The notes beneath the pieces were generated by a model, which made no database searches, was not told the DNA's origin, and saw only the letters and a program-made list of their open reading frames with translations. The position numbers and the translations under genes are program-made. From the NCBI GenBank assembly GCA_965232545.1, contig OZ246979.1:2703521-2767520 (forward strand): a stretch of DNA of 64,000 bases, written 5' to 3'. How positions within the stretch are numbered: position 1 is the first letter of the stretch; each line of letters begins with the position of its first letter. Of this stretch, positions 23,899-54,455 are shown piece by piece. Source of the stretch: Candidatus Poribacteria bacterium (GTDB lineage Bacteria; Poribacteria; WGA-4E; WGA-3G).

Positions 23899-24076
23899 AG
23901 GGATTCCTCAAAAAAACCTCATATTATTGCGAAACATATCAAAAATATGCATAATTATAGCATAAAAACGTATAAAAATACATAAAAATACATAAAAACG
24001 CATATAATAACATTATATTCGGTTAAAATTCTCTCAATAGATATGCTGTGATTAACAAAAAAGGAAGGTACAGAGC

Positions 24077-24289
24077 ATGGACAGAATAACTTTTAATCCA
24101 GAACAGTGTGGTGGACACCCCTGCATTCGAGGGATGCGGATTCGGGTAACAGATGTCTTAGATTTGCTGGCTGCTGGACTCTCTTTTCAAGAAATTCTTG
24201 ACGAAATGCCATTGCTGGAATACGAAGACATTGTTGCTTGTCTCCAATTCGCCTCACGAAAAATTAACCATCCTGTAGTTGACGCATGA
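24077..24289 (+). CDS. DUF433 domain protein (antitoxin-like partner of DUF5615 nucleases).
   Basis: 70 aa with the GKPCIRGTRI-like core (GGHPCIRGMRIRVTDVLDLLAAG). Followed by a truncated DUF5615-like start. Confidence 0.6.
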   Translation: MDRITFNPEQCGGHPCIRGMRIRVTDVLDLLAAGLSFQEILDEMPLLEYEDIVACLQFASRKINHPVVDA

Positions 24290-24324
24290 AGTTTTGGATC
24301 GATCAAAATACGCCTGTATCTTAG
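24286..24324 (+). pseudogene. Truncated remnant of a DUF5615 (Mut7-C-like) toxin gene, cut off by the REP array.
   Basis: Overlapping ATGA start/stop with the DUF433 gene. It encodes MKFWIDQNTPVS*, matching the canonical DUF5615 N-terminus MKFL.DENL.P, then stops where the first REP begins. Confidence 0.3.
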
Positions 24325-24333
24325 AAAAAACGT

Positions 24334-24686
24334 GGTTCGTAGTAGCGCAATTCATTGCGCTTTGTGGAAGGTAGATGTGTAGTTGACGCGGTTCATCAAC
24401 AATCTCCGGACCGGTTACGCAAGACGAGAACATTAGTCGAGTTTTAAAGGTCAGTTATTTTAAGTTCGTCGTAAGGAGACCCTTTATCACCTGTGTTACA
24501 GCGCAATGAATTGCGCTACTACGAACAGGAGAAGATGCGAATATGTACCGCTATGAAGGCAACTTCGTCAGCGTGCTAAAGCGCAATGAATTGCGCTACT
24601 ACGAACAGGAAGAGATTGGAATATGTACCGCCATGAAAGCAACTTATTCATCGTGCTAAAGCGCAATAAATTGCGCTACTACGAAC
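24334..24686. repeat. REP (repetitive extragenic palindrome) cluster 5' of the RAYT gene. It has one inverted-orientation REP (24334-24360) and three direct REPs (24501-24526, 24581-24606, 24661-24686) inside an 80-bp tandemly triplicated unit.
   Basis: Imperfect palindrome GCGCAATGAATTGCGC followed by TACTACGAAC. The 80-bp units also repeat the RBS and the first codons (ATGTACCGCTAT) of the transposase. Confidence 0.75.
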
Positions 24687-24702
24687 AGGAAGAGATTGGA
24701 AT

Positions 24703-25311
24703 ATGTACCGCTATCGGGGACTAACACCTGAAGAGAAAACTGAAATCCTGCAGCAGCGACAATCGCATGGTTTCCCACCGCACGCACCACCGCACCTACA
24801 CGATACCGAAGGTTGGTTTTTGATTACTACCGCCACTTATGAACATAAGCGGTACTTCCAGACCAACGAAGAACGAACATGGATACTGGGCGAGTTGCGA
24901 AAAGAACTCCAAATCCCCAACATCTCAATTGGCGGCTGGGTTGTATTATCAAATCATTATCATCTATTGATTAAGTGTCAACCGCTTTCGGTTATCAGTC
25001 AGCCCTTACGTCGGGTTCATGCCCGCACGGCACGTGAATTGAATCGTCGTGACGAACTATCTGGACGGCAAGTTTGGTATCGTTTCAGTGATCGACAGAT
25101 TCGCAGTGAAAGACATTATTACACAACCCTGAACTATATCCACTACAATCCGACAAAGCATAACTACGTGCAAAAACCAAAGGATTGGACCTGTTCAAGT
25201 TTACATTGGTATGAAAAACATTTCGGGATTGAATGGCTGCGGGATCTCTGGCGAACGTATCCTGTACGGGATTATGGAAAAGGATGGGATTGGCAAAATT
25301 CAGGTTCGTAG
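24703..25311 (+). CDS. REP-associated tyrosine transposase (RAYT, IS200/IS605-like HUH Y1 transposase).
   Basis: HUH motif LSNHYHLLIK and a downstream catalytic Tyr region (TTLNYIHYNP). 202 aa. Flanked on both sides by REPs. Confidence 0.8.
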   Translation: MYRYRGLTPEEKTEILQQRQSHGFPPHAPPHLHDTEGWFLITTATYEHKRYFQTNEERTWILGELRKELQIPNISIGGWVVLSNHYHLLIKCQPLSVISQPLRRVHARTARELNRRDELSGRQVWYRFSDRQIRSERHYYTTLNYIHYNPTKHNYVQKPKDWTCSSLHWYEKHFGIEWLRDLWRTYPVRDYGKGWDWQNSGS

Positions 25312-25551
25312 TAAGGCGATTCATCGCCTTGTGGTGAGGAAACCGTCCACATGAATATCTAATCCTGTTTTAAAAGCCTTAAAGATTTACAAATCAAATA
25401 ATGGCAAGACTGAAGACTTGATGAGTTTATATAAGGCTATTTGCAATGGTTTAAAAATTTCCTATGATGAGTCATTTTTTAACAACCCATTTATACCACA
25501 GATGCAAAATAATACCATTTCTGCATAACCGTTTTTCATTAGCAAAAAACC

Positions 25552-25715
25552 GGTTCGCAGTAGCGCAATGAATTGCACCAGGGACATTCGGAAACCTCAT
25601 AGCGTTTCAAAATCTCTGAAATGCGAATTTATCAGGACTTACGCAAAATTGGCTTTCATGCCAAAATTGAGGGGATATTCCCGAAGAAAGCGCAATGAAT
25701 TGCGCTACTACGAAC
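25552..25715. repeat. Two REP copies 3' of the RAYT gene (25552-25576 and 25690-25715).
   Basis: ggttcgcagtagcgcaatgaattgc and gcgcaatgaattgcgctactacgaacc are the same palindrome family as the upstream cluster. Confidence 0.65.
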
Positions 25716-25752
25716 CAAAGACCGCACGAAAACGGGTCAACTGCGTAAGTCC

Positions 25753-26621
25753 TAGGTTGTGTTTACATTTTGTGAGTGGTTACGAGTATTGCTGCGAAAT
25801 AGACGAATCCGAGGTACCGAACACTTAATTTATCGTAGCGCGTCGCGACCCGACGATACTGTTTCAACCACCCAAAGAAACGCTCTATCAAGTTGCGGCG
25901 TTTATACAATTCTTTATCATACTCACGGGGTTCCGTCCGCCCTTTGCGAGGCGGGATCACCGCAATCGCAGCCTCAGACGTGATCTCTGCTATAAACGCA
26001 TCCGAGTCGTAAGCTTTATCACCTATGACATATTCATAGGAATACCCTTCAATTAGCGCAGGAGCTTGTGTAATATCATTGCGGTGTCCCGCTATCAAAA
26101 TAAAACGCAACGGGATACAGGCATCGCTGAGAGACAGATTCAGTTTCGTCGTAAATCCGCCTCGCGTTCGTCCGAGTGCCTGTGCCTCTTGTCCTCCTTT
26201 TTTTTCGGGGCCCCTGCTGCCGAGGCATGTGCCCGCACGATCGTCGAATCAATGAGGATCCCTGAGATGTCGCCAGCATCATGAAACTGTTCATGGAGTG
26301 CTTGAAAAACACCCACATCGCACCATCTACTGAATCGACGATAGATCGCATTCCAATTACCATAGACCTTCGGTAAAGCGCGCCACGTCGCGCCTTCTTT
26401 TGCGATCCAAAGCACAGCAGAGAGAAAGTGCCTGCACGTTTCTGGGTTTCCAACATAGACGTTTCGGCAGTCTTTGAGGAACGGTAAGATGCTATTCCAA
26501 GCAGCATCACTCAACTGCACTGGCAGTTCTTGGGAGTCAACGGCATTTTGAGTTTCCATAAAAAAAGGATACTAAAATCTCTACCAAATGTCAATACCTT
26601 TTCAAATGTAAACACAACCTA
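25753..26621 (-). mobile_element. IS5-family insertion sequence (IS427/IS1031-like group), about 870 bp, with terminal inverted repeats and a probable TA target duplication.
   Basis: IRL (c)taGGTTGTGTTTACATTT at about 25753-25770. IRR is the reverse complement of AAATGTAAACACAACCta at about 26604-26621. It contains two overlapping transposase ORFs. Confidence 0.8.
25763..26559 (-). CDS. IS5-family DDE transposase OrfAB, expressed via a -1 programmed frameshift at an A8G slippery run.
   Basis: OrfA (26140-26559) is N-terminal HTH-like. OrfB (25763-26110) carries DDE-region motifs (VIGDKAYDSD ... ERFFGWLKQYRRVATRYDK). The slippery CCG AAA AAA AAG is on the minus strand at about 26199-26206. 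Confidence 0.75.
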
Positions 26622-26733
26622 CGGATTATAGCATTAATTTGATGGCATTGCCAATAAAAAACGCGTGAACGATAGGATATTCAGGGCGTACCTCTAACTG
26701 ACAACCTAAAACTGAATGACTTGGGAAAACATT

Positions 26734-26762
26734 GACAAGCCCTCTCAAAGACGCTATAATTG
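26734..26762 (+). promoter_or_regulatory. Consensus sigma70-type promoter (TTGACA-17-TATAAT) upstream of the second DUF433 gene.
   Basis: ttgacaagccctctcaaagacgctataat. Confidence 0.45.
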
Positions 26763-26803
26763 TGAAGAAGATTGACATGATTTCTATATTGGAGGGAATA
26801 TAC

Positions 26804-27022
26804 ATGGCAATTCGTTGGAGAGACCACATTGTTAGCACACCTGATATATTGCGCGGTAAACCGCGCATCAAAGGGACAAGAATTCCGGTAAGCCTTCTCC
26901 TCGGATACTTGGCAGCAGGGCATACAACAGACGAAATCATAACTGAATTCCCAGATCTCAAAGCGATGCAAATTCACGCCTGCCTTGATTACGCGCGTGA
27001 ATTAGAAGATTCCAATCAATAA
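26804..27022 (+). CDS. DUF433 domain protein (second copy). The start is refined to the internal ATG (MAIRWRDH...).
   Basis: LRGKPRIKGTRIPVSLLLGYLAAGHTTDEIITEFPDL matches the DUF433 core. No DUF5615 partner lies downstream. Confidence 0.6.
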   Translation: MAIRWRDHIVSTPDILRGKPRIKGTRIPVSLLLGYLAAGHTTDEIITEFPDLKAMQIHACLDYARELEDSNQ

Positions 27023-27041
27023 ATCCCGCCAAAAAATCCTT

Positions 27042-27076
27042 GACATCCTTCCCGAAACTGTATACAATGCAACCCC
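27042..27076 (+). promoter_or_regulatory. Near-consensus promoter (TTGACA-17-TACAAT) upstream of the beta-propeller protein gene.
   Basis: ttgacatccttcccgaaactgtatacaat. Confidence 0.4.
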
Positions 27077-27107
27077 AAGCAATGTACGTTTTATACGGAG
27101 GTTTCTC

Positions 27108-33392: not shown

Positions 33393-35774
33393 ATGCTCAT
33401 ACTACCCTTGAATGCCTTCGGACAGACTGATGCGGATGATACCGCCGAGTCAGATGCTGCAAAGGATGAAACCTCACAATCCGTTGTTACTTTAGATGAG
33501 ATAACAGTTGAAACAACACGCAAGGATGAAACCTCACAATCCGTTGTTACTTTAGATGAGATAACAGTTGAAACAACACGCTTGGAAATAAAACCCAAAC
33601 GGACGTTGAGTGGAGACTTGCTCAGGCGCGCGCCGGGCAGTGTTGGCGATCCAATTCGCGGAATAGCCCGCCTTCCGAGCATTGGTACAGTTAACGATTT
33701 CTTTGGGGCACTCTCTGTAAGGGGTGGCGCGCCGGGAGATAATCTCTACTACTTCGATCGATTGCCGTTAGGATACCCGTATCATCTCCTCGGGATTGTC
33801 TCGGTGGTGAGTTCTGAGACCATCGGGAAAATAGATGTGTATCCGGGCGGATTTGGTGCTGAGTTTGGCGCGGATTCACAGGCAGTGATTGATATACATT
33901 CCCGCCCACAGAAACTGGAGTCTTTAGGGTGGCTGGATGGAATGCTAAAACCGAGTTTTATCTATTCCGAAGGCTTTCTCAGCGGTGCTTTATCCTTTCA
34001 AGAGAGCCCCGAAGCCAAGGTCCCTCCAAACGGACCCGACAAAAAACCGTCTATTTTCCATCTTTCCAAGGATATACTTCTCGGCGATGCTCAGATATAC
34101 GGTAGAGATGCAAACAAAACGAGCAAAACACCAGCGAGTACCGACCAAGAATTTTTAGAAAAAGCCAACGAAACAGATGAGAAACCGGCGAGCACTGATC
34201 AAGAATTTTTAGAAAACAGCGTGTTACCCGGGCAAGGCTATTGGTACGCTTTCGGCAGACACAGTTATCTGGAACCATTTTTTGAATTGGCATCGAGATT
34301 AGTGGAACTTGAGGACCTGGTTCGAGAAGTGCCCCGTTTTTGGAGTTATCAACTAAAAGGAGTTTATAAACTCAATGACACCCACGGAATGGTACTTAAC
34401 GCTGTCACAGCGTATGACGCATCCGAATTCCGATTGGGATCAGATGAAGTTCACGACAGTGATCTCCACGGTCCCTTAAGTTCCGAAAACCCTTTTGATG
34501 TCCAAGGGATTCACTTTTATTCCCGGTTATTGCCTCAGTTCAGGTCTATTCTATCATTCACGCGTTCGTTTACAGAAAATGAAATCGCTTTTGGTGAAGA
34601 GTATTACTACCGGACGGCTGCTTCTGTCTACGCACTCCGACACGATTTCACTTATACCACATCCCCGGAGAATACCGATGAGGCTGTAGAATTCGGCTAC
34701 TTGCTTTCAAGTACCCCGTCAACGGTTATCAGTCACGGTGCGCGCCGAGTTGAAGAGGGAGATCCTGATTATGAATTCCGAATTTGGCACAAACAGAAAA
34801 AAGTCAATGTCACGGAGACCCGAAATCTCCATCGTTTAGAAGGGTATCTCCAGGCTCGGCAGAATCTCTTCGCTTCTAACGTTTTCGGCACTCTCGGAAT
34901 GCGAGCGAGTTACTTTAATCTCACGGATAACCTATCCCTCCAACCACGTGCCCAACTCCATTATAGTCTTCCATGGCAAGATGCATCCCTGAATTTCAGT
35001 TATGGACGTTATGCGCAAAATCCGAGATTAGACCAGTTTCTGCTGGGTGTAACACCAAATGCATCCCTCGAACAAAGTCTCGCAACGCATTACGTTCTTG
35101 AGTTGAGTCAGATGTTACCTTTCGGTACGGAAGTGAATATCGCTGGTTATTATAAAACACTCCGCGACCTCATCACCTACAATCAGGATGAGAGACAGTA
35201 TCAGAACGGTCAGGAAGGATTTGTGCGCGGGTTTGAAGTTTCTTTTGAACACAAAATTTCCGATACCTTTAACGGGTGGATGGCATACGCTTACACCGTT
35301 TCCAAACGCCGCGATTTTCCTGAAAAATTCCATCGGTTTTATACTTACAATAGTCCGCATGTTCTAACTTTGGCAACGAATTACAGCGCGCCTCAGGGAC
35401 TACTCCTCTCAATCCCTCTCATCGAATCGTTAGATATAAATGCAAAGTGGCAATACCAGAGCGGCGTCCTCTATGCCCCTTTAGTAGGCCGTACTCCCTT
35501 TACGAACTTTCGGACGAAAGAGAAAAAATGGCAACCGCTCTACGGAGAATGGAAGCGTAAACCGCCGTATCACCGGTTAGACCTCAGCCTCCACTTCCAA
35601 CTGTTCGGTGATTTAGAAGATCACGGTTGGGAATTAGGGTTTGTCCTTGAGATATGGAACGTTTACAACCGCAACAATATACTTGAAGTTCGATACAGTC
35701 GGAATTTCACAAAAGAGGAACCTATTTCGCAATTACCAATTATCCCATTTCTGGCGATAACGTTGGACTTTTGA
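33393..35774 (+). CDS. TonB-dependent receptor-like outer-membrane protein, a paralog of the preceding gene, with N-terminal internal tandem duplications.
   Basis: The plug region (LSGDLLRRAPGSVGDPIRGIARLPSI...VRGG) is alignable to the upstream paralog. The C-terminus LAITLDF mirrors LGITAEF. Confidence 0.65.
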   Translation: MLILPLNAFGQTDADDTAESDAAKDETSQSVVTLDEITVETTRKDETSQSVVTLDEITVETTRLEIKPKRTLSGDLLRRAPGSVGDPIRGIARLPSIGTVNDFFGALSVRGGAPGDNLYYFDRLPLGYPYHLLGIVSVVSSETIGKIDVYPGGFGAEFGADSQAVIDIHSRPQKLESLGWLDGMLKPSFIYSEGFLSGALSFQESPEAKVPPNGPDKKPSIFHLSKDILLGDAQIYGRDANKTSKTPASTDQEFLEKANETDEKPASTDQEFLENSVLPGQGYWYAFGRHSYLEPFFELASRLVELEDLVREVPRFWSYQLKGVYKLNDTHGMVLNAVTAYDASEFRLGSDEVHDSDLHGPLSSENPFDVQGIHFYSRLLPQFRSILSFTRSFTENEIAFGEEYYYRTAASVYALRHDFTYTTSPENTDEAVEFGYLLSSTPSTVISHGARRVEEGDPDYEFRIWHKQKKVNVTETRNLHRLEGYLQARQNLFASNVFGTLGMRASYFNLTDNLSLQPRAQLHYSLPWQDASLNFSYGRYAQNPRLDQFLLGVTPNASLEQSLATHYVLELSQMLPFGTEVNIAGYYKTLRDLITYNQDERQYQNGQEGFVRGFEVSFEHKISDTFNGWMAYAYTVSKRRDFPEKFHRFYTYNSPHVLTLATNYSAPQGLLLSIPLIESLDINAKWQYQSGVLYAPLVGRTPFTNFRTKEKKWQPLYGEWKRKPPYHRLDLSLHFQLFGDLEDHGWELGFVLEIWNVYNRNNILEVRYSRNFTKEEPISQLPIIPFLAITLDF
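33461..33580 (+). repeat. Perfect 60-bp in-frame tandem duplication (2 x 60 bp) inside the receptor gene.
   Basis: aaggatgaaacctcacaatccgttgttactttagatgagataacagttgaaacaacacgc is repeated twice without mismatch, encoding KDETSQSVVTLDEITVETTR twice. Confidence 0.9.
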
Positions 35775-43846: not shown

Positions 43847-44530
43847 TCATCTATTTTCTGTAGGGTCATTTAGGCCTTCTGTTGGAGGGAATTCCGATAG
43901 GGACGTTTCAATCCATCGCGCCCCAAGTTGAAAAAGTGAATCGTTTGCTGGTGTTTCAAAGGTAAAAACGGGTTTGCCCCACGCCAACACTATCTGCGCA
44001 AATTCCAAAATCTTACTATCCTCTGCAGCGTGGGCAATACAGATTTTGTCCGCAAGTGCCGCAACAAAGAGGTTGCGTTGGTGCGCCAATGCCGCTGTCG
44101 ATCGCTGATGGCGACTCCCAAAAATAGATAGGATTAATAGACGCTTTTCAGATAACGCATCCTTCCACGCCGATTTCAGTCTCATCTTTTCGATGCTCCG
44201 TGCCGGACTTATGAGAATCGGCTGTGAGCCACGCAGTAAAACGCGTAGGCACTCCTGCTCAACTGGAGAGTGATACCCGCCTATCGTTGGGATACCTGCT
44301 TCTCTAAATTCTTGTGCCAAGTCATGCGCTTTCAGGATAATCTCTCCCGGGCATTTACTGGAGCAGAAAAGTGCCCAGAGGTCTCCGTTCAAGGTGGCGT
44401 TTTGCCCAGGTAACAGGTCAACACTCCCGCGTGCCCAGATCGTTTCGGGTGTCTCCGTTTTTAAATACTGCCTCAATCCTGTTGGATAATTCGTGTCTTT
44501 TTGTGTGATGTGTTGGATTGCCTGCGTCAC
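43847..44530 (-). CDS. Rossmann-fold nucleotide-binding protein of the DprA/Smf/SLOG-like family.
   Basis: Pattern IGGYHSPVEQECLRVLLRG...ILISPA resembles the DprA/SLOG core. This is a weak assignment. Confidence 0.3.
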   Translation of the reverse strand: MTQAIQHITQKDTNYPTGLRQYLKTETPETIWARGSVDLLPGQNATLNGDLWALFCSSKCPGEIILKAHDLAQEFREAGIPTIGGYHSPVEQECLRVLLRGSQPILISPARSIEKMRLKSAWKDALSEKRLLILSIFGSRHQRSTAALAHQRNLFVAALADKICIAHAAEDSKILEFAQIVLAWGKPVFTFETPANDSLFQLGARWIETSLSEFPPTEGLNDPTENR

Positions 44531-44591: not shown

Positions 44592-44650
44592 TAATCGCTT
44601 ACCTAATCGCTTACCTAATCGTTTACCTAATCGTTTACCTTTTGTACGTA
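44592..44650. repeat. Tandem 12-bp repeat (TAATCGYTTACC) of 4-5 copies.
   Basis: aattaatcgcttacctaatcgcttacctaatcgtttacctaatcgtttacc, read directly. A related motif recurs at about 47852-47897. Confidence 0.7.
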
Positions 44651-46187: not shown

Positions 46188-47684
46188 TTACCTGTGGGCC
46201 CAATAATCTTGCTTACCTCCTGGGGTCTTGACAAAGAGTTCCCCGCTGTTAGTGTAAAAGATCTCTTTTTCCTGTTGCGGTGAAATTACAAGTTCAACTA
46301 CCCATAAATCTTCTGCAGTGCTTCCTTGTAAATCGTAAACATTATGAAATTCAATATCCCAATCTTCATCACTAATCGGAGGACGTATACCCCAAAGCTT
46401 TTCTGATACTTTACGGCGGACCTTATCTCTTTGTTGTTCATCAAGAGTTACACCTACCGTGATTCTATCATCCCTTATTCCCCAGAAAATACGTCCGCCT
46501 TCACTATTGAGAAAGGCGACAGCGTATTCATCAGCGGTATTTGTAATTGAACCAACTGGATTTCTGCCCTTGACTTCCTTAAATTCATAGAGGCGTGTTT
46601 CCTCAAAAGGAACAGATTGCCCCTGAATAAAATCAACTTGGGTTGGTTCGGTTAATTTTGCCCTATCAGTTGCATGAATTAGGTGTTCCTCAGCTAACCG
46701 TTTATTTTCACGTAACTCGGAAAGTTTACCTTCTGAATCCAACTTGATACCTACCTCAAAATATTCAATTGCTTTTTGATATTGCTTAAGCCGGAGAAAA
46801 GTTACACCCTTGCCGTTTAATATAATCGCTTTCTGAACTGGATCTTGCACCGCGCCAAGTGCTTTATCAAAATTCTCAAGGGCAGCTTGGAATTCGTCAA
46901 GATGAAGAAACGCCATACCATCATAACAGATATTCATTGGATCAATATACGAAACCAATTGTCCGGCACGTAGATCCTCTGCTGCCCTGGATAAGGAAAA
47001 ATTCCCTCCTGTCATTGCATCAATATATCTGCCATGCAAAGTTGCCAAGCTCACTTGAGTCCTTTGTACCGCCACCCGAATTTGGAGTTTAGCATAAAGA
47101 ATACCGTAAGCGGAAACGCTCATATCAGCAATAAGTCCTTCTGATAATCGGGAACCGAAATCTGAACGAAGTATGTGAGTAAACCAATCAAGAGTTGCAT
47201 CCGTAGGATTTAACTGATTCCAATGTGCCCACGATTCACGAAACTTGTCCGTGTCATTGTGCAAAGCGAACAGCAGAGCTGAAGGGGACACGTGTAATAT
47301 TCTACGAATCCCCTCTTTCTCCTCATCAGCTTGATATATTGAATTAAGATAAAAACGGCTAAGAATATAATCAACTAACTCAAAGTCAATTCTGGCAAAG
47401 TAATACTGAGAAGTAATAAACTGCTCTGCCTGCTCCTTATATTCCTCTTTATCCGATAAAAATTCTTGGGCTAATTGTGCAAAAGTCTCGATGTCTTTTT
47501 TGACAACATAGTGGTCAATCTTATCATTGCTTATTTTTTCGCAAATATTTTCTGAGACAAGTGCTGCAAGTTGCTCCTCTATAGCTACCAACGACTCACC
47601 AATCTCATTAGTAATTTCGTTGGCAGGGTTGAGAGTACAATCTAATAAGTGCAAGATAATTTTTTTACGGATTAAAGTATCCAT
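46188..47684 (-). CDS. TPR-repeat protein with a C-terminal AlbA_2 / Schlafen-like putative DNA-binding domain.
   Basis: TPR-like segment (KALGAVQDPVQKAIILNGKGVTFLRLKQYQKAIEYFEVGIKLD). The C-terminus (RLYEFKEVKG...AVAFLNSEGGRIFWGIRDDRITVGV) matches the AlbA_2 (PF04326) pattern seen in Schlafen-like defense proteins. Confidence 0.6.
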   Translation of the reverse strand: MDTLIRKKIILHLLDCTLNPANEITNEIGESLVAIEEQLAALVSENICEKISNDKIDHYVVKKDIETFAQLAQEFLSDKEEYKEQAEQFITSQYYFARIDFELVDYILSRFYLNSIYQADEEKEGIRRILHVSPSALLFALHNDTDKFRESWAHWNQLNPTDATLDWFTHILRSDFGSRLSEGLIADMSVSAYGILYAKLQIRVAVQRTQVSLATLHGRYIDAMTGGNFSLSRAAEDLRAGQLVSYIDPMNICYDGMAFLHLDEFQAALENFDKALGAVQDPVQKAIILNGKGVTFLRLKQYQKAIEYFEVGIKLDSEGKLSELRENKRLAEEHLIHATDRAKLTEPTQVDFIQGQSVPFEETRLYEFKEVKGRNPVGSITNTADEYAVAFLNSEGGRIFWGIRDDRITVGVTLDEQQRDKVRRKVSEKLWGIRPPISDEDWDIEFHNVYDLQGSTAEDLWVVELVISPQQEKEIFYTNSGELFVKTPGGKQDYWAHR

Positions 47685-48699: not shown

Positions 48700-51600
48700 T
48701 CACTTCCCCAAGCCCATCCGATATTTGATGTCGTAGTTGATGATGAAGTCTAATTCCTCATCTGTGAAGCCGTAGTGTTTCGCAAGCACATGGTCGATTT
48801 CATCTATGATGTGTTTAGATTTTTGAATCTTGAATAACTGCGTTTCAGTGCGTCCAGTCCGCTTTTGAACGCGAACTTGCATTATGCTATTACATTGTAG
48901 ATCCTCCAAATACACTTTTCCGAGTTCAGCGAGTTGAGAATCATAAAGAGCAGACTTAGGGATTGGAAAATTCTTAATATCAGATGCAGAAAGATTTCGG
49001 CAGTCCGTCGTAATCGTGTACCACCACCAGAATAAATCACTACTCAAAACCGCAATGACAGGTCTCAATATTTCAGAAGTTTCAACACTAAACGCCCGCT
49101 CAGCCGTAGAGTTCCCTGATTTACCATTAACCCTAAACGCCGGTTGGAAATCTGTGAACACTTTCCAATATAATCCACCTGCTACGCGGTGATAAACTCG
49201 ATGTTTACTTTGCGCCATGAATAACCTTAAAACAGTTTTGACTGCGGTACATTTCTCAAGTAAATCGGTTTCAATTTCCATTCCCAACTTTGGTGCCCAA
49301 GTTGCTGTTCTATGGCGTGGTATTTCCACATAACCAATATTATACATTAGGGAATCTCGATTATCGGAAGACCATTTCTGACAGTTTGTAGAAAAAGTCC
49401 TATCTTGCCTTGAAGGAGTTGCAATGAAAATAGTTAGTAGAAGGTTTACCATATCAAACAGTTTAGCAGGACGCCATGAATAGTTGGCATACCAAACATT
49501 ACGACTTTCTTCTAAAATGGTTTGTATGGTCTGCATTCGTTGTGTGGAAACTAATGCTAAAGGAACAATCATGCTCATGCAACCATGTTGACTTAAAAGT
49601 TGGGCACTGCGATCTATGCACATTGCATGGATTGCTTTGGTTTCGTAGCTGGATAGGCTATTTGGAGGTAAATAATCGACCTGTCTTAATTCAAGGTACG
49701 GCGGATTGCCAATAATCACATCAAAGCCACCGTCCTTCAGGATCCCGTAAAACGCAATGAACCAGTGGAACGGCTTATGTGAAGAAAGCCATGCTTGATA
49801 AGCAGCATTGGTATCCGCCGAGTTGAGATTTATTCTGCTTATCGTTTGTAAAGTGGGGGGGGGGCACACTATATTCGCCAGCAAGGTATTCGTTGAGTTC
49901 GTTTTCTAACGCCCTGAGTTTATCCTGTAACGCTTGTTTGTCTGCTAGGTGCACATCACCACCTAATTCCGTCTGCTGCTCCCGAAACAGGAAAGACAGC
50001 CACTCAACATCTTCAACCTTTTCTTCAATGCGCTTCATGCTATCGTCGAAGTCAAATTTACCGGTGACTGCTTCCTTCACCTCATCGTAGGAAGTATAAC
50101 CGACGAGGGTATTCCCTGCCTGAATGTTAAAGTCGATGTCTGGTAGCGGCTCAATCCGTCTCACGTCCTCAAGTTGCGCTACCATTTTAAGGAAGAGGCG
50201 CAGTTTGCAAATCTCAATTGCCTCGTCCATGATGTCTACGCCGTAGAGGTTGTTGATAATGATGGATTTGAGGATGAAGTAACGGTGATTCGGGTGCTGC
50301 TTGATGTCCTCAAGGATATTGCGGAAGTCGTTATATTTACGAGAAGGGTGTGATTCAGAAATCATTTCTATCTCGTCCAAGAAGACTTGCATCCGATCAA
50401 GACATACCTCATAGAGCGGTTCGAGGATATTCAGTGCGGCAAATAGGAACGCCCCGGAACCACAGGTGGGGTCGAGGATTGTCACCTGTGTGATGGCTTT
50501 CCAGAAGGCGCGGAGCAGTTCGGGCCCCTCACAATTCTCGATGACATCCTGCGCGAATTGGCGGATATTGAGATTGTAGGTAATCAGATCGTTGATGTCA
50601 CGGACCTCTCCGTTTTTGAGTTTCGCTCGGACAGTTTCATAACGTTGTCGCCGTGCGACGACCTCTCGCCAAATCTCTGTTGGCAAGGCATATTCATCGG
50701 ACGCGAGTGTGTTCCAACAATCGGTACGTTTGGAGACATCGCCAATTCCCACAGCAATTTCCTCTGGCAGATCGAATTCAACACCTTTTTTGACAGCATC
50801 GTAGATATAGCGGTCAGGATCTTCTTGTAGGAGGTGCCAGACGGATGCGTCGCCTTCAAAGGCGATTTTGCACGCTTTTCGCGCCTTGTCAAAAAGGCAT
50901 GGAATGATGGCATTTTTGCTGATGTAGTCCGTGATGTCCTCTTTAGTGTAGTAGGCACCCATCTGCTTCTGGTTGATGTATTTCTCAAAAATACAACCGA
51001 GGACATCTGGGTTGATCTCGTTGTCGTTCCGCAGCGGACGATCGTCGAGGTGCCACTGGTATTGATCAAAGAACTTGAAAAGCTGATCGAATGCCTTGTC
51101 AGGAATCTCAATGTTTTCGCCGTGGAGGGTCTCAATTTGGTGTTTCTGAAAGATGCCGCCGTTGAGGTAAGGGATTTTACCCAGTAGGCGTTTCACCTCT
51201 CTGCTTCGTTCGGCTTCCGGTTTCGCAAATCCTTCAAAGAAGAGGGGACAGAGGAGCTTTTTGTAATATTGATCGGTCTCCTGTTCTTGACCGTGTGCCA
51301 ATTTGGTGCATAGATAGTTGGGGTCGTTATCAAGAAAGCCTTTCTTCTGAATGAAGTAGATGAACATCAGACGGTTGAGCATGACGGAGGCGTACCAGCG
51401 TTGCATCTCTTCATCAGGAATACCTTTGAGAAATTTAAGGAATGCGTCATGCTCTTTCTTGAAACGGTCATAGAAACGTTTGGTGACTTTTTCAACGTCA
51501 AAACTTGCTCGAACCCGACTCGTCACGTCAAACAGTGTAAGTTGCCCTTCTTCCTCAAAACTAAAGGCAATGGCTTCAAGTTTTTGGATCAGCAAGTTCC

Positions 51601-51976
51601 CGGGTTGTGTTGTATGATACCGATGTTCACGACATGCTGTGGGTTTGCCGTGCTCTCGTCTTACCCACTGCCAGATTTGTGTATTTTTTTCCACATCGGT
51701 GTAAATGATAAAGTTCTCGTGGAAAGATTTTGCAACTTCCTTTTGAATCTTGCGGCGAGTGGCATAATCCGGCATGTGGTCATTAGATGTAGTTTGTGAA
51801 CACTCAAAGACGACCATTCCGCGTTTTTCGGCGATGGCGGTGAGTTGGTATTCGATTCCGTCTACCGTGATATTGAGTGGTTGGATCCGGTGAAAATCCC
51901 AACCGAGTTCTTCAATAAAGAGGCTTTCAAATTCGGATTCTTTGAGATATTGACGTGTTTCTCGGACGTTAAGCAT
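48700..51976 (-). CDS. Large N6-adenine DNA methyltransferase (gamma-like motif order; PglX / Type IIG-like). It is interrupted by a +1 frameshift at a G10 (C10 on the coding strand) homopolymer and is a phase-variable gene in the OFF state.
   Basis: The upstream frame (49775-52144 in the ORF track) carries AdoMet motif I ILDPTCGSGAFLFAAL and the N-terminal module ...WYASVMLNRLMFIYFIQKKGFLDN... The downstream frame (48700-49884) carries motif IV VIIGNPPYL. The two frames meet at 10 consecutive C; 9 or 12 would give a single protein of about 1092 aa (...EYSVPPPTLQTISR...). The start is refined to the ATG at 51976, with an AAGGAAG RBS. Confidence 0.75.
49855..49864. repeat. Homopolymeric G10 tract (C10 on the coding strand), a simple-sequence contingency locus inside the methyltransferase gene.
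   Basis: aaagtGGGGGGGGGGcacact, read directly. Coordinates are within about 1 bp. Confidence 0.85.
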
Positions 51977-52034
51977 TAGTATCTTCCTTTTGTCATGTTC
52001 AGTGGAAAGCGTCCCAGCAATTTCTGAGAGTGTT

Positions 52035-52721
52035 TTAGTCGTAGTCCTCGTCCTCATCGAGTGCCTCCGGGTCCAGGTCCATTCCGAGGTAAAGCCCCAT
52101 GGGAGCGAGTCCTGCTTTGACTTTTTGGAGCGATCCCATCCCAAAATTACTGATCAGTAGTAGTTCTTCTTCCGTTTTTTCGACGAGTGTGCGTAAGGTA
52201 TAGATGTTTGCCCTTTCGAGACAATTGTGGGCTCGGGTAGGGAGTCTGAGTGCGGCGATAGATAGGGTTAAGTAATCATCCCGCTCCTGTTCCGTCACAT
52301 CAGCGATCTCCGGCTCCCTGTAGATGTTAGGGAACAGCGGGTCCCGTTCATGTTGGGCCTCGATAATATCTATCCAGGGCGAATCCAATTCCTGTTCTGC
52401 CTCAGTAATATCTGCCAAGACATCCCGTTCCGGATTGAGCAAAGTTCTTTGGAGCGAAGGAGGGAGGGATTCCCAAATCCTCGCGTAATGCTCCGATTCT
52501 GACGCAGCTTCGCACCAACGGTCGAGAAAGGTCCGAAGCGTCTCGCTATCTTCCTTCCCCTCTGAAATCTGTGTTATGACTTGGAATAATTCCTTAAAAA
52601 ACACAATGAGGTCTTCTACCGGTAACCATTTGACCCAATCGTAGGGCTTTGGAATTGGAACAGATTTGACGAGCAATTCGTCGTCTATAAGGTATCCGAC
52701 AACAAGTTTAGCATCTTTCAT
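52035..52721 (-). CDS. Hypothetical protein with a C-terminal domain resembling the RNA polymerase alpha-subunit C-terminal domain (alpha-CTD, HhH). Paralog 1.
   Basis: The C-terminus LSIAALRLPTRAHNCLERANIYTLRTLVEKTEEELLLISNFGMGSLQKVKAGLAPMGLYLGMD matches the RpoA alpha-CTD pattern (LSVRS.NCLK...I.T...L....E.EL....N.G.KSL.EI...L...GL.LGM). The start is refined to MKDAKLVVGY. Confidence 0.55.
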   Translation of the reverse strand: MKDAKLVVGYLIDDELLVKSVPIPKPYDWVKWLPVEDLIVFFKELFQVITQISEGKEDSETLRTFLDRWCEAASESEHYARIWESLPPSLQRTLLNPERDVLADITEAEQELDSPWIDIIEAQHERDPLFPNIYREPEIADVTEQERDDYLTLSIAALRLPTRAHNCLERANIYTLRTLVEKTEEELLLISNFGMGSLQKVKAGLAPMGLYLGMDLDPEALDEDEDYD

Positions 52722-52830
52722 CTGGAGTCTCCTTGTAGCAAGAATGTTGAATTTACGCCAATTATACATGACGTACTGATAGCATTCAAGATTTTTTGGA
52801 GGTCGGAGTTGCCAATCCTTCCTGCAAGTG

Positions 52831-53660
52831 TTAGAGTGGCATCCTCGGTATCTCTGTCTTCAAACCGAGAATCGAGCATCTCAGCATTCTGCGATCCCAT
52901 GGGTAGCGGTTCATCGTTCTCAATGGCGTGTCGGTCAATCCAGCGCGTGCTTCCTGCGACAAGTGATACGCCATTTTGATATAAATGTGATAGGGCGGAA
53001 TAAGTTCCTCACGCGCCCAACTCTGCTCGATAATCTCAACCAATTCCTTAGAAATATCGATGCACCATCTGTCATTCCACCGGTCTTCAAACCAGTCCTC
53101 CAATTTTTCGCAAGCATCCGAGTCAACAACATCAATATTGAGTTCTCCCTGATGCGACAGCCCAGAAAGCGTCAAATTGCTACTGCCGAGGTAACCCACA
53201 GTCGGTGCGACGAGGTCGGAGCGATAGATGAGATAGAGTTTCGCATGGAGGGTGTGTCGGAGAAAAAGTTTTACCTTTACCTTCTCGTCCCGAAGCTGCT
53301 GCGCCAATTGACGTAACCCTCTTTCGTCTGCACGCGTTGGTACACCGACGGTTAACTGTTCTCGGAACTCCTCTGCTAACCTCCGTTTCAAACGGAGTGC
53401 TGTTTGATTGTCGATCCCACCGTCCTGCTTAGCGAGTCGTTTGGCCTCGCAGAGTTCTTCTTCGGCCAAGCGTTGCATCCCGACAAGTAAACGGCAGCAT
53501 TCGCCTTCACCCCATCCCAATTCTCAATATAAGATCCGAGTCCTCTCCATCCCCGGAGGTTAAAATAACCGACACAAAAGTCGGCGTATGTGGCAGTTTC
53601 AAGTGTCTGTTGGAGTGCGGGAAGTAGGGGTTGGTAGATATTATCAAAAATACGGGGCAT
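52831..53660 (-). pseudogene. PLD-family (HKD-motif) nuclease gene split by a frameshift (N-terminal fragment 53388-53660, C-terminal part 52831-53520).
   Basis: The N-terminal fragment is MPRIFDNIYQPLLPALQQTLETATYADFCVGYFNLRGW... The C-terminal frame carries [11 protein letters not shown]...GSSNLT (an HxK...GSxN PLD signature). The two frames overlap around 53470-53540 with no long homopolymer. Its ATG abuts the stop of the upstream alpha-CTD-like gene (TAAATG). Confidence 0.6.
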
Positions 53661-54455
53661 TTAGAATGATGCCTCCTCGTCGTCCTCGTCGAACAGATCC
53701 ATTCCCAGGTAAAGCCCCAAGCCAGCGAGTTTGGATTTGATTTCGTGGAGCGTCGCTTGTCCGAGCCCCTGGTATTCCAGGAGGTCCCATTCCATTTTTG
53801 CGACGAGTTCTCGGACGGTTTTGATATTTTCATTTTTAAGACAGTTGTGGGCACGAGCAGAGAGTTGAAGCTTGGAAATGTCGTATGCTAAATGTTTCTC
53901 CTGCTCTGCTTCCGTCACGTCACGTACCACCGGTTCAGCATCACCAGCGTGCATGGGTGAACGGTAATCCGGTTCCACGCCAACGATATCTACCCAGGGC
54001 GAATCCAATTCCTGTTCTGCCTCCAAAATATCTGCCAGGACATCCCGTTCGGAACTGATCATGGCTTTTCCGATGAAACCGGCGAGAGAATTCAAAAGTG
54101 TCGCGGGATCTTGCCCTTTTAAGGCAGCTTCTAAAGCATCTACGCTCCAATCGGTGACGACGGTCGGAGGGGTCTTGCTATCTTCTTCAAATATCTCAGA
54201 ATCTTCCTCGCCTAAGGCTATTTCGCGCCAACTTAAGGCAATTTCATGCCAAAAGTCGAGAAAAGTCTGAAGCGTTTTGCTATCTTCCTTTTCCTCTGAA
54301 ATTTGGATCATCAATTCCAGTAATTCCCCAAAAAACTGAGCAAGTTCCTCGTTCGCTAACCACTTGATCCAATCGTGAGATTCTGGAATCGTAAAAGATT
54401 TGACGAACATTTCGTCATCCATAAGGTATCCAACGACGAGTTTGGGCATTTTCAT
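53661..54455 (-). CDS. Hypothetical protein with a C-terminal RNA polymerase alpha-CTD-like domain. Paralog 2.
   Basis: Shares the N-terminal block KLVVGYLxDDExxVKS...ERDVLADIxEAEQELDSPWxDI and the C-terminal LSARAHNCLKNENIKTVRELVAKMEWDLLEYQGLGQATLHEIKSKLAGLGLYLGMD with paralog 1. Confidence 0.55.
   Translation of the reverse strand: MKMPKLVVGYLMDDEMFVKSFTIPESHDWIKWLANEELAQFFGELLELMIQISEEKEDSKTLQTFLDFWHEIALSWREIALGEEDSEIFEEDSKTPPTVVTDWSVDALEAALKGQDPATLLNSLAGFIGKAMISSERDVLADILEAEQELDSPWVDIVGVEPDYRSPMHAGDAEPVVRDVTEAEQEKHLAYDISKLQLSARAHNCLKNENIKTVRELVAKMEWDLLEYQGLGQATLHEIKSKLAGLGLYLGMDLFDEDDEEASF

What the first reader, a model, noticed from the sequence alone, without database searches (positions are those of the whole stretch)
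49855..49864. G10 homopolymer tract puts the large methyltransferase out of frame, a likely phase-variable ON/OFF switch.
The two methyltransferase ORFs, 49775-52144 and 48700-49884, overlap by 110 nt and meet exactly at a run of 10 G (10 C on the coding strand). Here the upstream frame reads ...EYSVPPPH... and the downstream frame reads ...IVCPPPTLQTISR... With 9 or 12 C the two frames fuse into one protein of about 1092 aa that contains both the AdoMet motif and NPPY. The present length is the OFF state, off by +1.

Slipped-strand mispairing at homopolymer tracts is an established mechanism of methyltransferase phase variation. A G-tract in pglX drives phase variation of the Streptomyces coelicolor Pgl system.
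Basis: partly seen in the sequence, partly recalled or inferred. Interest (0 to 1): 0.85.

Follow-up and report, generated by a model that had tools for sequence, protein, structure and literature searches.

The report
Phase-variable poly-G/C switch in methyltransferase
A run of ten G's splits a large DNA-methyltransferase gene of a sponge-symbiont (Poribacteria) genome, and relatives carry runs of 7 to 19 bases at the same spot, some in frame and some not. This marks it as a slippage-driven ON/OFF switch of a familiar kind, here caught OFF in a defence locus that is already decaying.

Summary
G10 at 49855-49864 (C10 on the coding minus strand) is the only G/C run of 7 or more in the window. 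Changing it to C9 or C12 fuses ORFs 49775-51976 and 48700-49884 into a 1091-aa protein.

The fused protein matches a "Type IIG" profile end to end. Its closest solved folds are BREX PglX, Type ISP enzymes and MmeI.

Comparison with relatives supports a hypermutable switch. Ten alleles from Poribacteria carry a pure C or G tract in the same low-confidence loop. Five are in frame: C8, C9, C9, G12, G19. Five are out of frame: C7, C9, C10, G8, G9. In four of the five OFF alleles a 1-nt change restores a full-length ORF. The fifth (C7) also carries an IS insertion. Sequence downstream of the tract is under purifying selection (dN/dS about 0.1). Most other homologs examined have a short canonical loop with no tract.

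Two corrections apply. The gene is not a BREX pglX. It is the methyltransferase/specificity partner of a conserved two-gene module with a PLD-SNF2 helicase. In this window that partner is an irreversible pseudogene, so the switch sits in a decaying system.

Switching within a population was not tested, because no reads are available. This is a new member of a known kind, and interest is moderate.

The parts
49855..49864 (-). Homopolymer tract. It is C10 on the coding strand (G10 on +). This is the OFF length; C9 or C12 would be ON.
   Evidence: It is the only G/C run of 7 or more in the window, against 0.04 runs of 10 or more expected.
49807..49867 (-). Lineage-specific loop insertion of about 43 nt beyond the canonical loop. 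It holds the tract and the shared motif ACTTTACAAACGATAAGCA.
   Evidence: The canonical loop is 78 nt from ELN to the Ser codon, against 112-123 nt in tract-bearing alleles. In 93 of 120 homologs the loop is the 32-aa canonical form. In the model of ON homolog P0083 the loop is coil with pLDDT below 50, between helices 678-702 and 721-735.
49775..51976 (-). Upstream reading frame: 733 aa from the ATG at 51976 to the stop at 49775-49777. It covers the N-terminal domain, a helical region and AdoMet motif I (50447-50476), and ends in a 25-aa out-of-frame tail.
   Evidence: It is identical to database protein P0068.
48700..49854 (-). Downstream reading frame, +1 relative to the upstream frame. It covers the loop remainder, HKPFHWF, GNPPY (49693-49710) and the variable C-terminal target-recognition region, with the stop at 48700-48702.
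   Evidence: dN/dS against the L001 allele is 0.083 over 366 codons.
52826..53660 (-). Remnant (pseudogene) of the PLD(HKD)-SNF2 helicase partner gene. Only aa 1-244 and about 594-632 of about 1131 remain, and there is a 1-nt non-repeat deletion near 53511.
   Evidence: tblastn and blastn against the intact L003 and L008 genes. Pfam PLDc_2 matches the 229-aa ORF 52831-53520.
52035..52769 (-). A 244-aa protein with an RNA polymerase alpha C-terminal-like domain. It lies between the helicase remnant and the methyltransferase gene.
   Evidence: Pfam RNA_pol_A_CTD, E = 6.7e-17. Paralogues sit in the same place in many related loci.
53661..54455 (-). A 264-aa protein with an RNA polymerase alpha C-terminal-like domain. 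It is the first gene of the island and is syntenic with L001, L003 and L008.
   Evidence: Pfam E = 3.4e-19. It is 96% identical to the L003 orthologue.

Best explanation
The tract is a hypermutable homopolymer, a contingency locus, inside the methyltransferase/specificity gene of a two-gene restriction-modification-like module. That module pairs a PLD-SNF2 helicase with a PglX/MmeI-like N6-adenine methyltransferase carrying its own target-recognition domain. The tract sits in a surface loop whose amino-acid sequence does not matter; only its length modulo 3 matters.

Slipped-strand mispairing at replication changes the tract by +/-1. In-frame lengths yield the full protein of about 1090 aa. 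Other lengths stop translation 25 codons after the tract, before NPPY and the recognition domain, which abolishes methylation. Restriction is probably abolished too, if the helicase-nuclease depends on this subunit for site recognition as Type III Res depends on Mod.

The window copy is OFF at C10, one contraction away from ON at C9. In this particular genome the helicase-nuclease partner is already an irreversible pseudogene. A return to C9 would therefore restore at most an orphan methyltransferase, and the locus is probably drifting towards permanent loss.

Shown here: the tract, the frames, tract polymorphism among relatives with ON and OFF states, restorability by 1 nt, purifying selection on both halves, loop location, partner linkage and partner decay. 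Inferred: the slippage rate, reversibility within a population, the dependence of restriction on this subunit, and any biological benefit.
For: 1. The fused C9 protein matches PADLOC PDLC03628 over residues 2-1088 of 1091 at 1044 bits. More than 100 homologs are single ORFs of 1075-1130 aa.
2. The same loop carries pure tracts in ten alleles. The window has C10 (OFF), L001/L002 C7 (OFF), L003 C9 (OFF) and L008 C8 (ON, 1105 codons stop-to-stop, about 1096 aa). L084 and L085 have C9 (ON), L086 G19 (ON), L087 G12 (ON), L069 G8 (OFF) and L080 G9 (OFF).
3. In four OFF alleles a 1-nt change restores a full ORF: the window gives 1091 aa, L003 1098, L069 1093 and L080 1096.
4. The OFF alleles L001 and L069 come from contigs whose names suggest short-read assemblies. 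The window itself shows no other homopolymer-linked ORF breaks.
5. dN/dS is 0.09-0.15 upstream of the tract. Downstream it is 0.083 (window vs L001) and 0.12 (L003 vs L008).
6. Of 12 G/C runs of 8 or more in 1.22 Mb of related loci, 9 lie in this loop. Such runs are otherwise depleted, with 3 seen against about 16 expected. Eighty JGI metagenome loci of the family have no G/C run of 8 or more anywhere and no homopolymer was detected in the loop.
7. Pure tracts persist across alleles that have diverged by dS 0.3-1.4.
8. The loop is coil with low confidence in the AF2 model. It is read in two different frames in different ON alleles (VPPPTSQKIS vs CPPHFTNDKQ).
9. Precedents exist: the poly-C (PPPP) ON/OFF tract in H. 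pylori Type IIG JHP1272 (PMC3936762), C. jejuni cj0031 (PMC8355987, PMC4889913) and the S. coelicolor pglX G tract (PMC4365076).
Against: - No read-level data exist, so length heterogeneity and reversibility in a population are unproven.
- No ON allele closer than 82% protein identity to the window is in the database, and all three members of its 90% cluster are OFF.
- The window's partner gene is dead. Sibling L001 carries an IS630-like insertion in the methyltransferase gene and a deletion in the helicase gene. Part of this lineage is therefore decaying rather than switching.
- Whether Poribacteria replicate G/C tracts with high slippage rates is unknown.
- ON/OFF frequencies cannot be estimated, because protein searches favour full-length (ON) hits.
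Confidence: 0.7

Rival explanations
1. Assembly or sequencing error. The true tract is C9 and the gene is intact in this genome. G10 would be a homopolymer miscall in a long-read metagenome assembly.
For: The window appears to come from a 5.9-Mb contig (P0068), which suggests a long-read assembly. Long-read errors concentrate in homopolymers (general knowledge). C9 is the in-frame length seen in L084 and L085.
Against: No other homopolymer in the window breaks an ORF, including A8 and T8 runs inside long genes. OFF tracts also occur in contigs whose names suggest short-read assemblies (L001 C7, L069 G8). The neighbouring partner gene is truly degraded by non-repeat lesions, so an inactive system is plausible here.
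Confidence: 0.1
2. Plain pseudogene. The tract is simply the weakest point at which an unneeded gene broke. It does not act as a reversible switch, and the locus is only decaying.
For: In the window the PLD-SNF2 partner is a remnant with a 1-nt deletion and two large deletions. In L001 the methyltransferase gene carries a 1246-bp IS630-like insertion and the helicase gene an internal deletion. All three members of the window's 90% cluster are truncated.
Against: In the window, L003, L069 and L080 the tract is the sole lesion in a gene of 3.3 kb. Downstream codons show dN/dS of 0.08-0.12. Pure tracts of 8-19 nt are kept in intact ON alleles across dS of 0.3-1.4. G/C runs are concentrated in this loop and depleted elsewhere. 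A chance tract would not recur at one loop in two polarities.
Confidence: 0.12
3. Expression by recoding. The out-of-frame allele is the functional form and is read through by +1 ribosomal frameshifting on CCC-C, or by RNA polymerase slippage on the C10/G10 template.
For: CCC-C sites and long homopolymers are known slippery sequences (established knowledge of tRNA-Pro +1 shifting and of transcriptional slippage). The required shift in the window is +1.
Against: Five alleles are simply in frame. OFF alleles need shifts in opposite directions: window, L003 and L069 need +1, whereas L001 and L080 need -1. No recoding direction is therefore conserved. No stimulatory element was looked for or seen. 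At most this would make the OFF state leaky.
Confidence: 0.05
4. Split enzyme. The two ORFs are translated separately and assemble into an active methyltransferase.
For: The downstream frame is open from 49884, upstream of the tract, and has TTG and GTG codons.
Against: The split would fall between motif I and motif IV of one catalytic domain. Nearly all homologs examined are single polypeptides. The first ATG in the downstream frame lies after NPPY. Overlap geometry differs among OFF alleles.
Confidence: 0.03

Closest known systems
Helicobacter pylori Type IIG JHP1272 / HP1353-1354 (Hpy99XIV) and Campylobacter jejuni cj0031
   Same: These are large Eco57I/MmeI-like N6-adenine methyltransferase-plus-recognition-domain proteins. 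They are switched ON and OFF by an intragenic poly-C/G tract encoding Pro or Gly. Database copies are often annotated as two ORFs (PMC3936762, PMC8355987, PMC4889913).
   Different: Those enzymes carry their own active nuclease and act alone. The protein here has no conserved D...(D/E)XK signature and is linked to a separate PLD-SNF2 helicase. The hosts there are cultured pathogens, whereas here they are uncultured sponge symbionts. Switching was shown experimentally in those cases and is only inferred here.
Streptomyces coelicolor Pgl / BREX PglX
   Same: PglX is the closest solved fold (8q56, 8c45, 9ewz; E about 2e-8, aligned over about 1090 columns). A G tract in pglX drives Pgl phase variation (PMC4365076).
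   Different: No brxC, pglZ, pglW or pglY genes lie in the locus. The NCBIfam BREX-1 PglX score is 73 bits against a cut-off of 500.
Type III restriction-modification with phase-variable mod genes (phasevarions)
   Same: The subunit that carries the methyltransferase and target recognition is the one that varies by repeat slippage. A separate helicase-nuclease subunit presumably depends on it, so OFF would be safe for the cell (PMC5909438 for the mod surveys; the dependence is inferred here).
   Different: The methyltransferase class and architecture differ: gamma-like with motif I before NPPY and a C-terminal recognition domain. The nuclease is PLD/HKD rather than PD-(D/E)XK. The helicase is SNF2-type, and the gene order is helicase first.
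DISARM class 1 (DrmD SNF2 helicase, DrmMI methylase, DrmC PLD) and Hma / DUF499-centred BREX-related systems
   Same: They share the same domain set: an SNF2 helicase, PLD or another nuclease, and a large N6-adenine methylase. PADLOC DrmMI, DrmD and HmaA models give partial hits.
   Different: DrmA, DrmB and the DUF499 ATPase are absent, and all scores are far below curated cut-offs (PMC12839542). The best PADLOC label for the helicase is only a candidate family, 'HKD+Snf2' (C3a139).

Membership tests
Repeat-mediated phase-variable (contingency) gene | A homopolymer or short repeat long enough to slip (7-8 nt or more for G/C), lying inside the ORF | tested here: met
   C10 at 49855-49864 lies inside the coding sequence.
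Repeat-mediated phase-variable (contingency) gene | Tract length differs among close relatives while the flanks are conserved | tested here: met
   The syntenic loci carry C7 (L001/L002), C8 (L008), C9 (L003) and C10 (window). G8, G9, G12 and G19 occur in further alleles.
Repeat-mediated phase-variable (contingency) gene | Both in-frame and out-of-frame states exist, and OFF alleles are otherwise intact | tested here: met
   There are 5 ON and 5 OFF alleles. A 1-nt change restores 1091-1098 aa in four OFF alleles. Only L001 has an extra lesion, an IS insertion.
Repeat-mediated phase-variable (contingency) gene | Coding sequence downstream of the tract is kept under purifying selection | tested here: met
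   dN/dS is 0.083 (window vs L001) and 0.12 (L003 vs L008) downstream of the tract.
Repeat-mediated phase-variable (contingency) gene | High-frequency, reversible length change within one population | not testable with these tools
   This needs raw reads or culture. The window's genome is not in the contig index.
Type IIG restriction-modification enzyme | N6-adenine methyltransferase motifs (AdoMet motif I and NPPY) in one polypeptide with a target-recognition domain | tested here: met
   LDPTCGSGAF and GNPPY are present. Pfam Eco57I and MmeI_Mtase match. PADLOC REase_MTase_IIG matches full length. The C-terminal third is swapped among alleles, with 45-57% against 82-98% nt identity.
Type IIG restriction-modification enzyme | An active endonuclease domain in the same polypeptide (PD-(D/E)XK catalytic residues) | tested here: inconclusive
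   The N-terminal 135 aa fold as alpha-alpha-beta3-alpha-beta3-alpha. Across 93 homologs only K50 is invariant, and D38 and E87 are about 90% conserved. No conserved (D/E)-x-K is seen.
Type IIG restriction-modification enzyme | Acts alone, without a separate restriction subunit | tested here: not met
   A PLD-SNF2 helicase gene lies upstream in 78 of 87 related loci across many phyla. It is often within 60 nt of, or overlapping, the methyltransferase start.
BREX (PglX / BrxX) | Sequence membership in a PglX family model | tested here: not met
   NCBIfam BREX_1_MTaseX scores 72.7 bits against a cut-off of 500. PADLOC PglX E-values are 1e-9 or weaker, against E = 0 for the Type IIG model.
BREX (PglX / BrxX) | Co-located brxC/pglY, pglZ and brxA/B/L or pglW genes | tested here: not met
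   None are found among the ten ORFs of the island in the window, or in the sibling loci. Only a weak partial PglW hit falls on the RpoA-CTD-like domain.
DISARM class 1 | The DrmA plus DrmB core together with DrmD, DrmMI and DrmC | tested here: not met
   No DrmA or DrmB gene is present. DrmD scores 124 bits against a cut-off of 610.
Hma / DUF499-centred BREX-related systems | A tripartite core including a DUF499 AAA+ ATPase (PMC12839542) | tested here: not met
   No such ATPase lies in the window island or in sibling loci.

The most novel reading that the evidence does not exclude
The tract-bearing loop is a selected 'contingency cassette' in an uncharacterised two-gene restriction-like system, pairing a PLD-SNF2 helicase with a PglX-like methyltransferase. 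The cassette carries a C tract on one side or a G tract on the other side of a shared motif, ACTTCACAAA(A/C)GATAAG. If so, uncultured sponge symbionts (Poribacteria) would have population-level ON/OFF bet-hedging of defence and genome methylation. This would be the first repeat-driven phase variation described for this phylum, and it could be read directly from existing HiFi metagenome reads.
Probability: 0.45. Interest if true: 0.6.

Novelty: new member of a known kind. Interest (0 to 1): 0.45.

Why it matters
Homopolymer-driven ON/OFF switching of methyltransferases is textbook biology in host-adapted pathogens. I found no report of it for Poribacteria or other sponge symbionts in the searchable literature.

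If it is real, symbiont populations inside one sponge would be mixtures of methylation and defence states. That bears on phage-symbiont dynamics, on gene flow between symbionts, and on how MAG 'pseudogenes' should be read.

It is also directly testable. PacBio HiFi reads carry both the tract length and the 6mA kinetics on the same molecule.

The conserved PLD-SNF2 helicase plus PglX-like methyltransferase pair spans bacteria and archaea and carries only a 'candidate' label in PADLOC. It is worth characterising in its own right.

Tried and rejected
- An exact look-up of the window's own N-terminal product (P0068) and of the neighbouring 244-aa ORF in the contig index found nothing. No second assembly of this strain could be compared.
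- A scan of JGI metagenomes for CCCCCACTTTACAAACGATAAGCA found no match. A protein-based scan then gave 80 loci of the family, none with a tract.
- phmmer against PDB sequences found no hit. Fold search was needed to find relatives.
- BREX pglX membership was rejected because scores fall below cut-offs and no BREX partner genes are present.
- DISARM and Hma/BR membership was rejected because core genes are missing (PMC12839542).
- Programmed frameshifting was rejected as the conserved mode, because in-frame alleles exist and OFF alleles need opposite shifts.
- A single-origin clade was not supported. In an NJ tree of the N-terminal 700 aa, L087, L069 and L080 fall outside the core tract clade, and tract-less L010 nests inside it. 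The genes are mosaics of 98-100% and 45-80% identity blocks, so tree-based inference of gains and losses is unreliable.
- Rfam and tRNA scans of the window found nothing relevant to the tract. The tandem-repeat scan found only unrelated repeats, listed under noticed in passing.
Full report
**1. The observation**

The plus strand reads aaagtGGGGGGGGGGcacac, with G10 at exactly 49855-49864. It is the only G or C run of 7 or more in the 64 kb window. A first-order Markov model of the window predicts 0.04 runs of 10 or more and 3.3 runs of 7 or more.

On the minus strand, ORF 49775-52144 and ORF 48700-49884 overlap by 110 nt around the tract. The first ORF has a plausible ATG at 51976, giving 733 aa. 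I rebuilt the coding strand with 8-13 C. Only C9 and C12 give one ORF: 1147 and 1148 codons from the TTG, and 1091 aa from the ATG for C9. Motif I (LDPTCGSGAF, 50447-50476) lies upstream of the tract and GNPPY (49693-49710) lies downstream.

A +/-1 scan of all 72 homopolymers of 6 or more in the window found no other run that joins long ORFs. A8 and T8 runs inside genes of 350-1013 aa are intact. This argues against general homopolymer miscalling.

**2. What the gene is**

The C9 fusion matches PADLOC model PDLC03628 (REase_MTase_IIG) over residues 2-1088 of 1091 and positions 3-1095 of 1100, at 1044 bits. Pfam finds Eco57I, MmeI_Mtase and DUF7814. More than 100 database homologs at 60-82% identity are single proteins of 1075-1130 aa.

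An AlphaFold2 model of the intact homolog P0083 has mean pLDDT 72. Its best PDB fold matches are BREX PglX/BrxX (8q56, 8c45, 9ewz; E about 2e-8), then Type ISP LlaBIII, CamA, MmeI and DrdV. Sequence scores against the BREX PglX, DISARM DrmMI and other curated models are far below cut-off.

The N-terminal 135 residues form an alpha/beta domain. Across 93 homologs there is no conserved D...(D/E)xK. Whether the protein has its own nuclease is therefore doubtful.

**3. A conserved partner**

A gene of about 1130 aa lies immediately upstream in 78 of 87 related loci. It encodes an N-terminal PLD/HKD domain and an SNF2 helicase. The loci come from Poribacteria, Nitrospirota, Chloroflexota, Omnitrophota, Desulfobacterota and even a Bathyarchaeia MAG. 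The partner gene often ends within 60 nt of the methyltransferase start, or overlaps it.

Its best label is a PADLOC candidate family, 'HKD+Snf2' (C3a139, E = 2e-53). DrmA, DrmB, the DUF499 ATPase and BREX genes are absent (PMC12839542).

The module therefore looks like a two-subunit, Type III-like arrangement. One subunit is a helicase-nuclease and the other a methyltransferase-specificity subunit. That functional dependence is an inference, not a result.

**4. The tract in relatives**

The window's flanks are 91-96% identical at the nucleotide level to syntenic loci L001/L002, L003 and L008. L008 lies on OZ243935.1, a Candidatus Poribacteria chromosome. The window is therefore poribacterial. 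At the homologous position the related alleles carry the following tracts:

| Allele | Tract (coding strand) | State |
|---|---|---|
| Window | C10 | OFF |
| L001/L002 | C7 | OFF |
| L003 | C9 | OFF |
| L008 | C8 | ON (1105-codon open frame, about 1096 aa) |
| L084 (P0062) | C9 | ON |
| L085 (P0083) | C9 | ON |
| L086 (P0025) | G19 | ON |
| L087 (P0061) | G12 | ON |
| L069 | G8 | OFF |
| L080 | G9 | OFF |

- L001, L003 and L008 have one nucleotide fewer before the tract than the window. L001 and L003 also have two more after it, so their in-frame length is C8 or C11.
- L084 and L085 read ...VPPPTSQKIS..., the same frame as the window's predicted C9 product ...VPPPTLQTIS....
- A 1-nt change restores a full ORF in each OFF allele that has no other lesion: the window gives 1091 aa, L003 1098, L069 1093 and L080 1096.
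- The OFF alleles L001 and L069 are on contigs whose names (a SPAdes NODE and a scaffold) suggest short-read assemblies.

**5. The loop**

In 93 of 120 homologs the segment from ELN to HKPFHW is 32 aa, or 78 nt of DNA. Tract-bearing alleles have 112-123 nt there.

All tract alleles share a motif, ACTT(C/T)ACAAA(A/C)GATAAG. The C tract lies 5' of this motif and the G tract lies 3' of it. Different ON alleles read the motif in different frames (TSQKIS vs HFTNDK). The peptide sequence is therefore not conserved; only the frame is. In the model the loop is coil with pLDDT below 50, between helices 678-702 and 721-735.

**6. Selection and enrichment**

Pairwise dN/dS upstream of the tract is 0.09-0.15. 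Downstream it is 0.083 for window vs repaired L001 (dS 1.49, 366 codons) and 0.12 for L003 vs L008. The part that is untranslated in the OFF state has therefore evolved as protein. Pure tracts persist among alleles separated by dS 0.3-1.4.

In 1.22 Mb of window plus related loci there are 12 G/C runs of 8 or more, and 9 of them are in this loop. The remaining 3 compare with about 16 expected. L084-L087 were fetched because their loops showed PPP or GGG, so four of the nine are ascertained. Eighty loci of the family from JGI metagenomes (0.70 Mb) contain no G/C run of 8 or more at all. The tract is thus confined to a poribacterial subset.

That subset is not cleanly monophyletic, and the genes are recombination mosaics with swapped C-terminal recognition regions.

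**7. State of the locus in this window**

The PLD-SNF2 partner is a wreck. Only aa 1-244 and about 594-632 remain (53660-52826). There is a 1-nt deletion in non-repeat sequence near 53511 and there are two large deletions.

Sibling L001 has a 1246-bp IS630-like insertion about 190 nt downstream of the tract, and an internal deletion in its helicase gene. L003 has an intact helicase gene and a methyltransferase gene that is OFF by one nucleotide. L008 has both genes intact.

The window copy is therefore best read as a contingency gene caught OFF in a system that has lost its restriction arm. A slip to C9 would at most restore an orphan methyltransferase.

**8. Rivals**

- **Assembly error (true C9).** This cannot be excluded without reads. 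It is disfavoured, by the OFF alleles in apparently short-read assemblies, and by the dead partner gene.
- **Plain pseudogene.** This fits the local decay. It does not explain the single-lesion OFF alleles, the selection downstream, or the recurrence and persistence of pure tracts at one loop.
- **Recoding.** +1 shifting or transcriptional slippage may make OFF leaky. It is not the conserved mode, since in-frame alleles exist and OFF alleles need opposite shifts.
- **Split two-subunit enzyme.** This is unlikely. The cut would fall inside the catalytic domain, and there is no ATG in the downstream frame before NPPY.

**9. Comparison with the known**

Mechanistically this is the same device as three described cases. 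These are the poly-C (PPPP) ON/OFF tract of H. pylori Type IIG JHP1272 (PMC3936762), the poly-G tract of C. jejuni cj0031 (PMC8355987, PMC4889913) and the G tract of S. coelicolor pglX (PMC4365076). It also parallels phase-variable Type III mod genes (PMC5909438).

It differs in host (uncultured sponge symbionts), in the linked PLD-SNF2 partner, and in the shared loop cassette that carries either a C or a G tract. I found no report of phase variation in Poribacteria or sponge symbionts in the searchable library. That library is incomplete.

**10. Verdict**

This is a new member of a known kind, and interest is moderate at 0.45.

Noticed in passing
window 52826-53660 (minus strand): The PLD-SNF2 helicase gene is intact (about 1131 aa) in siblings L003 and L008. 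Here it is reduced to aa 1-244 plus about 594-632, with a 1-nt non-repeat deletion near 53511 and two large deletions. The system's presumed restriction arm is dead in this genome.
   Followed up: yes
window 53661-54455 and 52035-52769 (minus strand); paralogues in about 30 related loci: Small proteins (244-264 aa) with an RNA polymerase alpha C-terminal-like domain flank the helicase gene or sit between helicase and methyltransferase. They give a weak partial hit to the matching region of BREX PglW. Their role (DNA binding or regulation) is unknown.
   Followed up: partly
L001 8310-9555 (also L002): A 1246-bp IS630-like element (HTH_23 plus DDE_3 ORFs, terminal inverted repeats TAGTCGTTCA...) is inserted in the methyltransferase gene just after GNPPYLELRQVDYLPP, about 190 nt downstream of the C7 tract.
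   Followed up: partly
L034 and L058 7606-7622; L076 7825-7850; L077 6903-6920 and 6310-6328: GC-rich hairpin repeats (CCCCGCTTGCGGGGGGG, some with G7 runs) lie inside intact methyltransferase ORFs of other poribacterial paralogues. Several fall in a second poorly conserved region after motif I. They may be in-frame REP/MITE-like insertions or further slippery tracts.
   Followed up: no
window 48700-49690 vs L001, L003, L008: The alleles are recombination mosaics. Blocks of 98-100% nt identity alternate with blocks of 45-80%. The C-terminal recognition region comes in at least two unrelated types: the window resembles L001, and L003 resembles L008. This suggests specificity swapping.
   Followed up: partly
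window 44592-44640: A 12-nt unit, TAATCGCTTACC, is repeated 4.1 times at 97% identity. It lies about 60 nt upstream of the DprA-like gene 43847-44530, which hits PADLOC PsyrA at E = 1.4e-16. It could be an operator array or another variable repeat.
   Followed up: no
window 23900-27100, especially 24493-24711: This is a gene-poor stretch with no ORF of 150 aa or more apart from one 202-aa ORF at 24703-25311. It contains an 80-nt tandem repeat (2.7 copies, 91% identity) and an A-rich 10-mer repeat at 23961-24013. There is no Rfam or tRNA hit.
   Followed up: no
window 33462-33581: A perfect 60-nt tandem duplication (2.0 copies, 100% identity) lies inside the 793-aa ORF 33393-35774.
   Followed up: no
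window 46188-47684 (minus strand): A 498-aa protein with TPR repeats plus a Schlafen/AlbA_2 domain lies downstream of the methyltransferase. Siblings carry an AlbA_2 plus HATPase_c_4 protein at this place instead, so the defence island is variable.
   Followed up: no
window and 86 related loci (1.22 Mb): Outside the methyltransferase loop, G/C runs of 8 or more are about five-fold rarer than a first-order Markov model predicts (3 observed vs about 16 expected). This is consistent with selection against slippery G/C tracts elsewhere.
   Followed up: partly
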